A stretch of 64,000 bases of DNA, taken from Lama guanicoe (lineage: Eukaryota). The notes beneath the pieces are model-generated. The model made no database searches. It was not told where the DNA came from and saw only the letters and a program-made list of their open reading frames with translations. Where the stretch lies: positions 4,868,071-4,932,070 of the forward strand of contig MU053810.1 in NCBI GenBank assembly GCA_013239625.1, in the 5' to 3' direction. Both the position numbers and the translations under genes were made by a program. Positions within the stretch are counted from its first letter, which is position 1, and every line of letters begins with the position of its first letter. Positions 5,072 to 27,004 of this stretch are shown here, piece after piece.

Positions 5072-5407
5072 GCAAATCTTTTGTTTTCCTTTGTTACAGT
5101 GTTTGGTGAAAGTTTTTGAACTTAGGATTTGATTAAATGTTAAATAACCAACCCCCAAAACATACCAGAAGGTAAAAGAAAAGTATGGACATATACACAC
5201 TCATTGTCACTTTTTCTCTGTGATTTATCATAACATTTTGTGTATATTTCCCTGTGCTATACAGTGTAATCTTGTTTATCTGTTCTACGATTTTTCGCAA
5301 ATCTTTTGTTTTCCTTTGTTACAGTGTTTGGTGAAAGTTTTTGAACTTAGGATTTGATTAAATGTTAAATAACCAACCCCCAAAACATACCAGAAGGTAA
5401 AAGAAAA
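5072..5407. repeat. Perfect 111-bp direct repeat (5072-5182, 5297-5407) flanking a 114-bp L1 3'UTR fragment (minus)
   Basis: Copies identical on manual alignment; reverse complement of the insert matches the L1 tail at 44344-44500. Confidence 0.9.
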
Positions 5408-11999: not shown

Positions 12000-13460
12000 A
12001 AAAGACAAAGAAGAATAAAAAATAAACAAGAAAATGATCGGACTGTGATCAGTGCCGTTTGGAGAAGGGAACTGAGGAGCAGCTATAAGTCGGTGATGCT
12101 GACAGGAAGCCTCTGTGCAGAAAGAACACGTAGGATGAAATTCAGGGAAAAAATTTAAAGGAAGAGCCAACCATGAGAGGTCAGGGGAAAGAGTTGAGAG
12201 AGAAGGTACAGCTAATGAAGGTGCACTCATTGCTATCACTTTAAACGGTCCGTGTTCGATGGGAGTAAGAGAAACAGCTAATTGTAGACCGTTGAGGGTC
12301 TCCCAGGCTGTGGCAGGGCGTGAACTGATGAAGCCGGGGAGGATCGTCATCGGATGACACAGCTGAGAGGTTGCGCTGCTTGCTACCTGGAGGGGGGGAG
12401 GTTCTAAAGGGACAACCAGGAAAGGAGGTGTTCCTGCAGGAGCCCAGGTGCTGGGTGATGGCAGCTGGGACTTGACCAAAGTGAAGGCAGAGAGGAATGT
12501 AAAGATTCAGGCTATGTTTTGGAGGCAGAGTGGACGGCACTTGAAACAGAAAAGAAGAAACAAGGCAAATTCCTAGATCTGGAGCTTGAACAACTGGGTC
12601 GACAGAAGGGGACCTAGTGAGATGGGGAGACGGGAGGGACAGACGCGTCTGGGCGTCATGCAGGTCCACTTGCCCCGGAAACCTTGAACTGCTCATTAAA
12701 CATCCACATGCAGACGGTGTACAGGCAGGAGCCTCTGTGAGCTGCAGTCTGGGGAAGAGGTCAAGTCTGGAGATGTATCCTTGGGGAGATCTCTGGATAA
12801 GAGCGCCGAGGAAATGAGGGCCGATGGAGAGGAGAGAAGGGTCAGAAGCAGCTCTAGGCCTTCCAACACTAAATATCAGGCAGAGGCAAAAATGGAAACC
12901 AGCAGAGGACAGCGTTTCAGGAAGCGACTGGGAAATTGTGTTGCCCACTTACTGAAAGGTCAAATAAAAAATCCAAGCAACTGTTCGTTTTGGAACCTGA
13001 GAGTCTCTGGTAACCTTGGCCTGAACCACGTCATTGTCAAGTGTGTGGGCTGAGAAAGACATGATGTGAGGAAGTGGAACCTGCGGATGTTTTTTTTTTT
13101 TTTTTTCCCAACGAGTGTTACTGTGAAAAGCAGAAGAGTAAAGCGGAGCAGTAAGTAGAGGGGGATGTGGAATCGAGGAAGATTTTTCTTTTAAACACAG
13201 GAAATAGTAGAATACTTCTATATGATCGTGACTGAGCCGCTGGAAAGAGTGATTTTACAGAAGAGACAGGGGTCTTGAGAAAGTGAAAAGTGATGGAACC
13301 CAAAGAAGAAATGTGGGTGTTGGTGTTCAATAGCATAATGTCCCAAGTAAGAAGATATTTATTAAGATAAGAGTAAGGAAGCCTGAAAGCGCAGGTGTAC
13401 AGAAGGTCCTGATATTTTTGGAGAAGGTAAAATGAGGAAATTCCTGTCTAACTTCCAGGA
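12000..13460 (-). mobile_element. Degenerate L2 LINE remnants
   Basis: Purine-rich L2-like tracts on the plus strand; boundaries approximate. Confidence 0.55.
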
Positions 13461-13610
13461 GGGAAAAGCAGACAGGAGGAGAATGGTTGCTTGGATTCCT
13501 GCCTGATATCTACAGTGTTGGAAGGTCTAGAGCTGGTTCTGACCCCTCTTTCCTCTCCATCGGCCCTCATTTCCTCGATGATCCTATCCAGAGATCTCCC
13601 CGAAGATACA
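12774..13610. repeat. Inverted repeat, arms 12774-12883 and 13499-13610 (~88-90% identical)
   Basis: Manual alignment gives about 11 mismatches and one 2-nt indel. Confidence 0.9.
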
Positions 13611-17045: not shown

Positions 17046-17225
<180 letters not shown>

Positions 17226-17294: not shown

Positions 17295-17453
17295 CCTGGT
17301 CGTGGGACAGCTGACGTCGGATTAAAGGAGCTGACGTTGTGAGGCCGGGAGGGATGGTTGCTATGGAGGGGACCTGGGAGGTAGAGGCCGAGATGACAGC
17401 AGAAGCAGGGATGTGCGAAATATCATGATCGATGCTGGGGCTAGTTGGTTCAT
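17295..17453 (-). CDS. ARHGAP21: ARHGAP21 exon ~10 (159 nt), (D)[21 protein letters not shown]...[10 protein letters not shown]
   Basis: gacag acceptor, gtatgt donor; symmetric phase 1->1. Confidence 0.95.
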
Positions 17454-19378: not shown

Positions 19379-19520
19379 CATGCCCACATGGCCGCAAGTA
19401 CAGCGAGTGGCGCTGTAAACCTACTGCTGCTGTTGGAGGAGGTATTTGAAAGGCAGGTGGCGAAATTAGAGCAGGAGCAGGAATGTGCGACTGTGGTCCG
19501 GACTGGGACTGCAGGCTCGC
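19379..19520 (-). other. ARHGAP21: Candidate alternative coding exon (142 nt), paralogous to exon 10
   Basis: tttgctgcctgtag acceptor, ATG|gtaggg donor; open in phase 0->1: ASLQSQSGPQSHIPAPALISPPAFQIPPPTAAVGLQRHSLYLRPCGH. Confidence 0.65.
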
Positions 19521-19728
19521 CTACAGGCAGCAAACATCACAGCAGCACAAAGCTCTGTGTTTTAAAAAGGCAGGTGGAAGTATTGCTTTCCGACCTGCCG
19601 CAGGTCACAGTTACTTGGCTGAATTTCTGCAGCCTCTGTGGGTCAGACAAGTTAACGAGTGGTGATAAGATTTCGAGGGTTTGCGTGTATGTGAGAGACA
19701 CGTGTGTATGAAAGATGACCCCGCTTAC

Positions 19729-19776
19729 CAGCTGACAAATATTGGAAGTATTAATTTCAAGGAACCTAGCATTTAT
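19729..19776 (-). other. ARHGAP21: Candidate alternative exon (48 nt), INARFLEINTSNICQL
   Basis: ttctttgaag acceptor, CTG|gtaagc donor; open, phase 0->0. Confidence 0.4.
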
Positions 19777-20158
19777 CTTCAAAGAATTTAATAAATATTA
19801 GGCACTAATTTCACAAGTCTATCTTTGGAATGATTAATTTCAGCACACAGAAAAAGCCAGCTACTAGGAATGGAGAAGACTGAGCTCCAGGGGAGGGTCA
19901 AGAGACTTGGATCCTGTCTTGTTGGAATTCCTCTGGATATTAAATTTGTCCCTGTAAAGAAACTGGACTGGGATTATCAAAAGGGTCATTTCTAGCTCAA
20001 GAGGACTACAACAATAAAGCCACTAAAGGGGTAAAATTATCCGTTTATGTAAGAATATAAAATACTTCTGGATTTTTATAAGCCAGGGAGTTTTTAGGGG
20101 GCTTTTGAGGTTTGAATTTATTTTAAAAACTGACAAATCTGGCTGAGAGTGTACTTAC

Positions 20159-20190
20159 TACTGGCTTTATTTTCAACTTAAAGGAACTCG
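20159..20190 (-). other. ARHGAP21: Candidate alternative exon (32 nt), (A)SSFKLKIKPV
   Basis: attttcag acceptor, GTA|gtaagt donor; open, phase 1->0. Confidence 0.45.
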
Positions 20191-21096
20191 CTGAAAATCT
20201 AGTAAGTCTGCTTTAGGGAAGCAATTCTATAATTTTTATAAGTGTGAAGTTAAAAAAAAATTATTCCCCAAAGTAAGTAAGCACAGTATTCTACAAGGTG
20301 TGCTACAGATAAATTTGAAATACTGTAGGATAAAAGCCATGCTACTACCAAAAGGAAGATAAATGAACACCTAAAATTATTCTGTGGGGAGCAGTTTTCT
20401 TAAACTTGGAACACATAAATTTATCTAGTAAGAAGATGCCAATTCAAACCTGGGAAATCTGAGCTAAGAAGAGTGAATATTAATTCAGAACTATCCTTTA
20501 GCCTAAGATTTAAAAGAGTAAAAGGCCAGGATTTAAATTTTAGCACATTTTTAGGGCACTGTTGAAAGAACATGATATTTGGAGCAGGCAGTCAGCTCCG
20601 TCAGTTACCTGCCGACAGACCTTAGTCAAGGACTTAACTTTCCTTATCCATAAAGTGGGTATTTATTCCTGACCAAAATTCCCTACATGATTATCCTAAG
20701 GACTGGTACATGAAATACTTGGTAGGTTAAAGTACTGCGTAATTTGGGGTTTTTTTTTGGGGGGGGGTTGTCATTATATTAAAGATTACCTCACATCATC
20801 ACTCAAATAATAGAAGCAAAATTATCTCTAAGCTTAAGAACCAACAGAATCAAATTTTAGGGGAAAGCTGATACACAAAAAGGATTATAAGATGATACAG
20901 TGTAATTTTTCTTTTCATGGATTATAAGCTTTGCAGAAAGACTCAGTCCATATTTGTGTAAAAGACGGGCTGGGGTCCTGGCTGCAGCCTCCCCGCTGGA
21001 GTGAGAGATTAGAGCTCCCCGAGGAGGAGGCTGGGTTTAAGGTGACAGTTACCCAGTTCTATCGCTTTTGGGTGGATTTCAGAGGGCTAAGCTCAC

Positions 21097-21340
21097 CTGT
21101 AGAGATGCTGTAATCCAGCTATAGCCTGTAAGCTTTAAAACTTCTAAATCGGTTTAAAATGGCAGTGCCAGCAAGGCTGCAAAGTCAGTTTCAGTTAGGC
21201 CAGTGCTAACTAAGTACACGCAAGCTGGCCAACCTTGCGGCGGGGAGGACAGAGAGGAGTACTAAAAACACGGCAAAAAACAGAGGAGAATGGATGTGAG
21301 AAGAACTCGATGTGAGTCATACGGCTGGTTTCTTTATATT
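21097..21340 (-). promoter_or_regulatory. Candidate internal promoter/first exon
   Basis: TATAAAG (21332-21338, minus), AP-1 site TGACTCA (21313-21319), locally raised GC/CpG, strong donor CAG|gtgagc at 21097/21096. Confidence 0.35.
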
Positions 21341-25110: not shown

Positions 25111-27004
25111 CTATAAATGGGATAGAAGCCAAGGAGTCACCGGGTGGGCTGGTACTCGAGGCCTTCCTTTCCTCCATCCTTTTTATGTGGACCTCACGGC
25201 GTGCATCATTGGGCAGCCAGCAAGTGGTGTCTGACCCCGTCTCCTGGTCGTTCACTGCCAAGATGTAGGACTGATGCCTCAAAGGCTGTGGTGTCTGGCG
25301 ACCAGATGGAGGCTTTTCTCTTAGGATGACAGTTTCTTTATTTTCTACAGCACTGGACTGCTGAACTTCAGCCTCCTGTAAATTTAAATCTTGATTCCTT
25401 TGAGTGATGGGTAACTCTGAATCTGGTGTGCCAGAACTCTCATTCATCAGAGGTGTGAGCTTAACAGAAGCTTCAGATAGAGAAGGGGGTTTCCCGGTGT
25501 CCACCTGGTGACCAGGAGCACTTTCAGCCCCTAACCATGTCTGCTGATTCAGTAGGCTGTTTTGATGCAAATGATTTACTGGTCTTTGGTCTTTAATAGA
25601 AATAAATGAGTTCTGGCTGGAGGGGGGTTTTGTGACATGCGTAGAAGGCGCTTTCAGAGAATTACTTCGGACTTTCACAAGAGGTGACCTGTCCTGTGAA
25701 ATACCTCGAGGCTGGGACATCCCACAAGTAGTCTGAAAATTTCGGTTTGCCTGCAGTGTCTTTAGATCTGGCGGAATTTTTTTAAACTGAGACACCGATC
25801 CCGCCCCTCGGCCACTCACCCGACGGTTGTCAGAATTCACAAGGCTTGGAGCCACCGTAAAATTGGAACCCCGAAAAGATTTGTGAATTTCTGGCTGCCT
25901 GGGTCTCTCATAAATACCTCGCCGATCGTCCTGTTCGGTAAACCCGCTCCACGTGTAAGTCTGCTTTCGGTCTCCATTTGAATCAGGGGGCGGACGTTCA
26001 GAATGGACGTTTTCTAAAGTTTCACCCTGTCCCTCGATATAATCCCACGAGCGAGTTCTGTGATTACTAAAACTAACAGATGGAGACGTCAGCGTTCCTT
26101 GAGATGCACTTCTCGGGCAATACTTCATTAACACGGAGTCCTCCAGCCTCTCCTGGGACACGCTGCGTTGCCGGATCTGAACGGACTGGGGCACTCGGTC
26201 CTGAGAGGTGCTCCGACGTCGTACCTGCAGAGCGGCGCGGTTCAGTACCACCTGGTTGTAGTCTGCTGTGCTCTGAGAGGCTGCTCTCAAACTGTCTAAC
26301 CTTTCCTGAATTGTCCGACAACCTATGTGCAACCGCCTGTTATCAATGTACTCTTTGTAAGTTTTATAGTTTTTCCAGTCTATGTGCTGATGGGAATTTG
26401 GAGAATAGTGATTGACAGATACAGAAGGCGAATCCACAGCTGGAGATCTATTGCTTGATGGTCCCTCTGCGTGTCCGCTGTAATTGCCAGATTTCAGTAA
26501 AATCCCAGAAGGTTCCAATGACCTGGAGCCGGCTGGATGAATTAGATGGGCAGTGGGAACTGACGACGGTGGTGATGTGGTTCTTGACGCCGTTTTTAAA
26601 GAGGTCTGCTCATTTCTGCCATACCTCACCTCTTCAGTTCTGTGCGAGGGAACCGTGTGGGTGTTCCTATTAGGTAACAAATCTACAACCTTCTCAGAAG
26701 GTACAATGACAGTCCTTACGCTTTCATTGCAGACACACACTGCTGTGTTTGACTTGGCCACATCTGGGGGTGATGGAGGCACTTGGATTTCCATCCGGTA
26801 GGCCCTGCTGGGCTGCGTCAGTACTGGTGGACTGGTTTGCTGTTTGCTGGAGGAGGAGTCTGGAGGAGCTGTTTCAGCGGGCTGCGCCATGGCTGAAGGG
26901 GCGGACGGAAGCCAGGGGTAGCAGATCGGTGGGGGCTCGGGTATGTTGCGGGCATTGCCGCTGTAGGCTTCATTGCCTTTCAGGTAGGCATCTTGAGAAT
27001 ACGC
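25111..27004 (-). CDS. ARHGAP21: ARHGAP21 exon ~9 (1894 nt), [10 protein letters not shown]...DSLASIPFI
   Basis: Overlaps the 598-aa ORF 25094-26890; cgtag acceptor, gtgagc donor; phase 0->1. Confidence 0.97.

What the first reader, a model, noticed from the sequence alone, without database searches (positions are those of the whole stretch)
19379..21340. Hidden frame-compatible exon module in intron 9: a possible second ARHGAP21 isoform system
Seen: three candidate exons chain with matching phases, 32 nt (1->0), 48 nt (0->0, optional) and 142 nt (0->1). The module accepts exon 9 (phase 1) and rejoins exon 10 or exon 11 (both phase 1) without a stop: ...PFI-ASSFKLKIKPV-[INARFLEINTSNICQL]-ASLQSQSGPQSHIPAPALIS...PCGH-(E)SVGPP. 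A further strong donor at 21097 follows a TATA/AP-1 region, and the area is largely TE-free. Inference: either an alternative to exon 10, or the 5' end of an internally initiated PDZ-less PH-RhoGAP isoform. I cannot tell whether it is already annotated.
Basis: partly seen in the sequence, partly recalled or inferred. Interest (0 to 1): 0.72.

Follow-up and report, generated by a model that had tools for sequence, protein, structure and literature searches.

The report
Decayed duplicate of ARHGAP21 exon 10
The proposed hidden exon module in an alpaca-type ARHGAP21 gene is mostly chance, but its main piece is a broken fossil copy of the next exon, a copy that several marsupials still carry intact as an extra optional exon.

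Summary
The three candidate exons exist on the minus strand of a Vicugna-type ARHGAP21 gene and chain without a stop. That is weak evidence: intron 9 holds 47 such chains, and five control stretches hold 3-658. The real feature is the 142-nt piece (19520-19379): a tandem copy of exon 10 with both splice sites in register. RefSeq models of five marsupial genera keep an intact 53-residue copy ('10a') in front of exon 10. The camelid piece fits 10a better than exon 10, needs 3-6 frameshifts to align, and groups with 10a at support 100/99. Best reading: one duplication before the marsupial-placental split, now decayed in camelids. Spliced straight to exon 9 it gives a premature stop. An internal PH-RhoGAP isoform lacks a usable start: the first in-frame AUG lies inside the PH domain. 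Splicing in RNA is untested.

The parts
19379..19520 (-). Decayed tandem duplicate of exon 10 (ortholog of marsupial exon '10a'); AG and GT kept, ancestral frame broken by several indels; 142 nt against 159 nt
   Evidence: Best non-self match to exon 10 in the window (59 against a maximum of 46.5 in 1258 windows; 1 of 2000 shuffles reached it); splice sites in register; fits 10a better than exon 10; tree 100/99
17295..17453 (-). ARHGAP21 exon 10, 159 nt, phase 1 to 1; parent of the duplicate
   Evidence: Exact junction mapping of alpaca protein P0129
25111..27004 (-). ARHGAP21 exon 9 (large exon), phase 1 donor at 25111
   Evidence: 628 of 630 residues identical to Vicugna pacos records
17047..17149 (-). 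ARHGAP21 exon 11, phase 1 acceptor
20159..20190 (-).
   Evidence: Acceptor rank 138 of 458, donor 15 of 402; peptide in 0 of 406 proteins
19729..19776 (-).
   Evidence: Donor rank 2 of 402, acceptor 190 of 458; its AUG opens a 32-codon dead-end frame; peptide in 0 of 406 proteins
21097..21338 (-). Possible non-coding first exon or enhancer: TATAAAG 21338-21332, AP-1 site 21319, strong donor 21097; no AUG in 21310-21097; use untested

Best explanation
Exon 10 of ARHGAP21 (159 nt, phase 1-1, a Ser/Pro-rich linker upstream of the PH domain) was tandemly duplicated once, on the mammalian line before marsupials and placentals split. The upstream copy (10a) kept both splice sites and, being symmetric, could be included as an extra 53-residue cassette. 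Gene models of five Australian marsupial genera still show this: exon 9-10a-10-11. In the camelid line the copy took several indels and no longer encodes the ancestral peptide. It is most likely skipped and drifting. If spliced directly to exon 9 it forms a stop at its 3' junction, which should trigger nonsense-mediated decay. The 32- and 48-nt pieces are ordinary intronic pseudo-exons that happen to fit the phase. SHOWN: homology, register of splice sites, closer fit to 10a, frameshifts, intact marsupial models, the stop on direct splicing. INFERRED: single origin and date, neutrality in camelids, skipping, decay of any included transcript.
For: Homology to exon 10. Ten marsupial records from Petaurus, Antechinus, Trichosurus, Vombatus and Notamacropus carry an intact 53-aa copy, with no gap in 10 pairwise alignments. 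Global frameshift-aware scores of the window piece: 68-92 against the five marsupial 10a, 73 and 103 against unnamed P0417 and P0418, 55-66 against 13 exon-10 sequences including alpaca's own; shuffles reached at most 29. Shared derived residues: ALIS against AVIS, PC[GD]H against SHD[HQ]; AFQIP is shared with P0417 and P0418. For P0418 the best hit in 64 kb is this piece, ahead of exon 10; 0 of 300 shuffles reached it. Tree: 8 duplicate rows against 23 exon-10 rows, 100/99; the window row sits with P0417 and P0418 (90/98). Direct exon 9-142 splicing stops at the junction.
Against: No orthologous DNA and no RNA were examined, so neither neutrality nor skipping is measured. Both splice sites survive and score like exon 10's own (acceptor 3.3 vs 3.3, donor 3.2 vs 3.5). 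19379-19776 keeps 14 CpG in 398 nt, matched by 1 of 534 non-coding windows (bounds chosen after the fact), which may mean a regulatory role. The tree has only 53 columns, 40% filled for the window row, with long branches for P0417 and P0418. Marsupial records are predicted models: 31 of 41 lack 10a, and 10a is less conserved there (83%) than exon 9 (92%), the last exon (89%) or exon 10 (97%). Protein sampling was partial: 120 of 861 hits were listed, and at most 15 members per cluster.
Confidence: 0.75

Rival explanations
1. Poison exon: the placental copy lost its coding role but is kept as a regulated cassette whose inclusion makes a premature stop and lowers ARHGAP21 through nonsense-mediated decay.
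For: AG and GT intact and as strong as exon 10's; direct inclusion stops exactly at the 3' junction with either exon 10 or exon 11; CpG retention; recognisable orthologs persist in two unnamed records.
Against: Four invariant bases survive by drift fairly often (inference). P0417 and P0418 are only 57% identical, below exon 9 among placentals (68-91%), which looks like drift. P0418 ends differently at the donor position. No such exon is among the 2 ARHGAP21 events in a human/mouse neuron exon table (the table holds only 1:1 orthologous exons and was cut when stored).
Confidence: 0.1
2. Internal promoter: a TATA/AP-1 promoter near 21.3 kb makes a transcript spliced from the 21097 donor through the 48- and/or 142-nt pieces to exon 10. 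It would be non-coding or poorly translated, not a PH-RhoGAP protein.
For: Donors ranked 1, 2, 3 and 6 of 402 in intron 9 all fall in 19379-21097; CpG retention at 19.4-19.8 and 21.0-21.5 kb; rat Arhgap21 has two unannotated CAGE-supported start sites (PMC9892061, passages; positions not given in the text I saw).
Against: No AUG in the candidate first exon; the first in-frame AUG is Met965, inside the PH domain that starts near 935, after 7-10 upstream AUGs. No fetched protein starts with sequence from this region. TATAAAG is not the full TATAWAWR consensus.
Confidence: 0.08
3. The reader's module is real: a newly exonised 32-nt exon restores the frame of the decayed duplicate, giving a camelid coding isoform with 58 or 74 new residues.
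For: All four chains are stop-free; the 142-nt piece has real splice sites; only 2 open phase 1-to-0 pseudo-exons lie upstream of it at this threshold, and the 32-mer is one of them.
Against: Chance chains are plentiful and the 32-nt acceptor is weak. 15 of 15 camelid cluster members are canonical. The direct peptide search gave 0 hits among 13 candidates (weak, representatives only). About half of the peptide is out of the ancestral frame.
Confidence: 0.04
4. The camelid piece and the marsupial 10a are independent duplications that look alike by convergence.
For: Short, low-complexity sequence; long branches can attract; bird and reptile exon 10 also score fairly well (64-66).
Against: Shared multi-residue changes at the C-terminal end and in the middle; same side of exon 10; support 100/99.
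Confidence: 0.03

Closest known systems
Tandem exon duplications, including unannotated intronic copies of annotated exons (Ivanov and Pervouchine 2022, PMC9013439; first of four parts read)
   Same: A homolog of a neighbouring annotated exon lies in the adjacent intron of the same gene, same strand, with splice sites in register.
   Different: Here the copy is frameshifted in one lineage and intact in another. Whether ARHGAP21 is in their tables could not be seen (supplement unavailable).
Homologous mutually exclusive exons / tandem exon duplication-derived substitutions (PMC8373072, PMC5740500; listings and supplement searches only)
   Same: Origin by tandem duplication; in marsupials same length and phase as the parent exon.
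   Different: Marsupial models include both copies together (10 of 10) rather than one or the other; the camelid copy differs in length and frame; ARHGAP21 is not named in the held supplements (1 and 10 files).
Known ARHGAP21 alternative exons (30-nt exon 8 and a 274-nt exon regulated by neuronal activity, PMC11390650; C-terminally truncated isoforms, PMC10249030 passages)
   Same: Same gene, cassette-type splicing.
   Different: Those events are conserved between human and mouse and lie elsewhere (window 28368-28339 and from about 2922); none is in intron 9.

Membership tests
Tandem exon duplicate | Sequence homology to a neighbouring exon of the same gene beyond chance | tested here: met
Tandem exon duplicate | Same strand, adjacent intron, splice sites at homologous positions | tested here: met
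   AG and GT columns align; the copy lies 1.9 kb upstream of exon 10
Mutually exclusive homologous exon | Same reading frame and phase as the partner exon | tested here: not met
   142 vs 159 nt; direct use gives a stop. Met for the marsupial copy (53 aa)
Mutually exclusive homologous exon | One or the other copy in a transcript, never both | tested here: not met
   All 10 marsupial records with 10a also carry exon 10; these are predicted models
Conserved alternative coding exon | Peptide present in orthologous proteins, frame conserved | tested here: not met
   0 of 406 proteins for 13 motifs; 3-6 frameshifts against homologs
Conserved alternative coding exon | Junction reads or long reads support inclusion | not tested
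   No reads were laid on the region
Poison (NMD) cassette exon | Inclusion creates a premature stop upstream of later junctions | tested here: met
   Stop at the 3' junction with exon 10 or exon 11
Poison (NMD) cassette exon | Inclusion rises on NMD inhibition; nucleotide-level conservation | not testable with these tools
   Needs NMD-blocked RNA-seq and mammalian genome alignments
Internal-promoter PH-RhoGAP isoform | In-frame start codon upstream of an intact PH domain | tested here: not met
   First in-frame AUG is Met965; PH starts near 935. Non-AUG starts were not examined

The most novel reading that the evidence does not exclude
An exon duplicated in early mammals took two fates: marsupials kept it as a coding spacer that lacks the parent's basic-residue serine site (RRQLS became RRQLP), while placentals let the frame go but kept the splice sites, turning it into a regulatory poison exon, or in camelids into a frame-rescued exon fed by a new 32-nt microexon or an internal promoter.
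Probability: 0.15. Interest if true: 0.6.

Novelty: new member of a known kind. Interest (0 to 1): 0.3.

Why it matters
It removes a proposed second ARHGAP21 isoform system and replaces it with a datable case of exon birth by tandem duplication, kept in marsupials and decaying in a placental. It gives a natural comparison for how long a duplicated exon's splice sites outlast its frame, and predicts a cryptic exon in ARHGAP21 intron 9 of other placentals. It also shows why phase-compatible chains found by eye are weak evidence. I found no paper on this duplicate, but the marsupial exon is already in automated RefSeq models. The class itself is well known.

Tried and rejected
Own-genome search: none held. 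Direct homolog search with the 142-nt peptide: 0 of 13 candidates, weak evidence. Sequencing-run search: no RNA holder listed; this says nothing about expression, and no reads were laid, so splicing is open. The primate 34-residue cassette between exons 9 and 10 (5 records) looked like a weak match to 21338-21285 (E 0.02), but 81 of 300 shuffles did as well: rejected. The naked mole-rat 35-residue insert also has no match in intron 9 among its five best hits in the window. A second copy outside therians: none of 25 profile hits had two exon-10-like stretches (P0407 and P0416 are unrelated chance hits); representatives hide isoforms, so this is weak. Hidden copies of other exons: none among 13 other exons scanned; the extra peaks beside the PH exon are tails of its own hit. 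In one search the P0207 rows were mis-sliced and are ignored; they were redone. Literature: 'ARHGAP21 + exon duplication' 0 papers; 'ARHGAP21 + marsupial' 1 irrelevant listing; not in held supplements of PMC8373072 and PMC5740500; PMC10705168 passages uninformative. Supplements of PMC9013439 and PMC9892061 could not be seen and may list this copy or the rat start sites. Earlier scan notes: nothing by place or sequence, and the 8 word hits shown were unrelated.

Full report
Setting. The window holds ARHGAP21 on the minus strand. Exon 9 matches Vicugna pacos records at 628 of 630 residues and Camelus at 620-621, so this is an alpaca-type camelid. Mapping alpaca protein P0129 gave 20 junctions: exon 9 is 27004-25111 (phase 1 donor), exon 10 is 17453-17295 and exon 11 is 17149-17047.

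The observation. This is not beyond chance. Using recalled approximate splice weights and the weakest candidate site as threshold, intron 9 has 17 open pseudo-exons and 47 stop-free phase 1-to-1 chains; five control stretches of about the same length have 3 to 658. The 32- and 48-nt acceptors rank 138 and 190 of 458.

Do the peptides exist? A direct search with the 47-residue peptide found nothing (0 of 13 candidates). I then collected ARHGAP21 proteins: 120 of 861 hits to the PH exon, one more, and members of 30 clusters, at most 15 each, 406 records in all. Of these 379 had the exon 11 anchor: 341 were canonical, 17 skip exon 10, 16 carry an insert, 3 lack exon 9 sequence and 2 were irregular or mis-anchored. 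The camelid cluster was listed completely (15 of 15) and is canonical here.

What the 142-nt piece is. It is the best non-self match to exon 10 in the window (59 against at most 46.5 in 1258 windows; 1 of 2000 shuffles reached it), and its AG and GT fall in the same columns as exon 10's. Ten of the 16 inserts explain why: RefSeq models of Petaurus, Antechinus, Trichosurus, Vombatus and Notamacropus carry an intact 53-residue second copy of exon 10 ('10a') between exon 9 and exon 10, always together with exon 10. A profile of these found two further unnamed short records, P0417 and P0418, of the same type. They share words with the camelid piece that marsupials lack, so they are probably placental (inference). 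With frameshifts allowed, the camelid piece scores 68-92 against the five marsupial copies, 73 and 103 against P0417 and P0418, and 55-66 against 13 exon-10 sequences; shuffles reach at most 29. It needs 3-6 frameshifts. A tree of 31 rows puts the 8 duplicate rows on one side of a branch with support 100/99, attached between non-mammalian and therian exon 10 (forks 93/87 and 91/79). That suggests one duplication after the split from reptiles and before the marsupial-placental split; with 53 columns and long branches the dating is tentative.

How it most likely works. A phase 1-1 exon can be duplicated and included without harm, so the copy began as an extra linker cassette. In marsupials the frame is intact (no gaps in 10 pairs), but it is the least conserved coding part compared (83% against 89-97%), only in-frame copies can appear as proteins, and 31 of 41 marsupial records lack it. 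It has lost the serine of exon 10's RRQLS motif (a basophilic kinase-type site, from recall). In camelids the frame is gone. Direct splicing from exon 9 produces a stop at the 3' junction with either exon 10 or exon 11, so any leak should be degraded (inference).

The internal-isoform idea. The 21097 donor is the strongest in the intron, with TATAAAG at 21338 and an AP-1 site at 21319. But the candidate first exon has no AUG, and in the four transcript layouts tried, 7-10 out-of-frame AUGs come before Met965, 30 residues into the PH domain. A non-coding start or an enhancer remains possible: 19379-19776 keeps 14 CpG in 398 nt, matched by 1 of 534 non-coding windows (bounds chosen after the fact), and rat Arhgap21 has two unannotated CAGE-supported starts at positions not given in the passages I saw (PMC9892061).

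Against my reading. No RNA and no orthologous DNA were examined. The copy's splice sites score as well as exon 10's, which fits a retained poison exon as well as slow decay. Large clusters were only sampled, and clustering hides rare isoforms.

Known context. Tandem exon duplicates hidden in introns are a described class (PMC9013439, first of four parts read). ARHGAP21 is not named in the held supplements of PMC8373072 and PMC5740500 (main texts seen as listings only). A human/mouse neuron exon table lists two other ARHGAP21 exons (PMC11390650, passages and supplement rows). PMC10249030 (passages) names only C-terminally truncated isoforms. Searches found no description of this duplicate; subscription journals are mostly not covered, and two supplements could not be seen.

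Verdict. Observation confirmed, interpretation partly supported. Decayed therian exon-10 duplicate 0.75; poison exon 0.10; internal non-coding start 0.08; real frame-rescued module 0.04; independent duplications 0.03. A new member of a known kind; interest 0.3.

Noticed in passing
window 2922-2779, minus strand: Conserved alternative exon giving a short Cys-rich C-terminus and a stop; 94% identical over 47 residues to tuatara. Its position fits the 274-nt activity-regulated exon in the PMC11390650 table.
   Followed up: partly
window 28368-28339, minus strand: 30-nt exon 8; matches the activity-regulated microexon in the same table.
   Followed up: partly
window 17453-17295 (exon 10): Exon 10 is skipped in 17 fetched protein models, named ones from bats, sloth and armadillo.
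   Followed up: no
P0140, P0141, P0143, P0145, P0147: Human and macaque models carry an unrelated 34-residue cassette between exons 9 and 10; no significant counterpart in this window.
   Followed up: yes
window 19379-19776 and 20960-21340: CpG-retaining patches (observed/expected 0.59 and 0.49 against 0.30 for intron 9), possibly regulatory.
   Followed up: partly
window 5072-5182 and 5297-5407: 111-base direct repeat, 100% identical, in an intron.
   Followed up: no
window 12774-12883 and 13499-13610: Inverted pair of about 110 bases, 88% identical, in the intron after exon 12, beside long low-complexity open frames.
   Followed up: no
   Followed up: no
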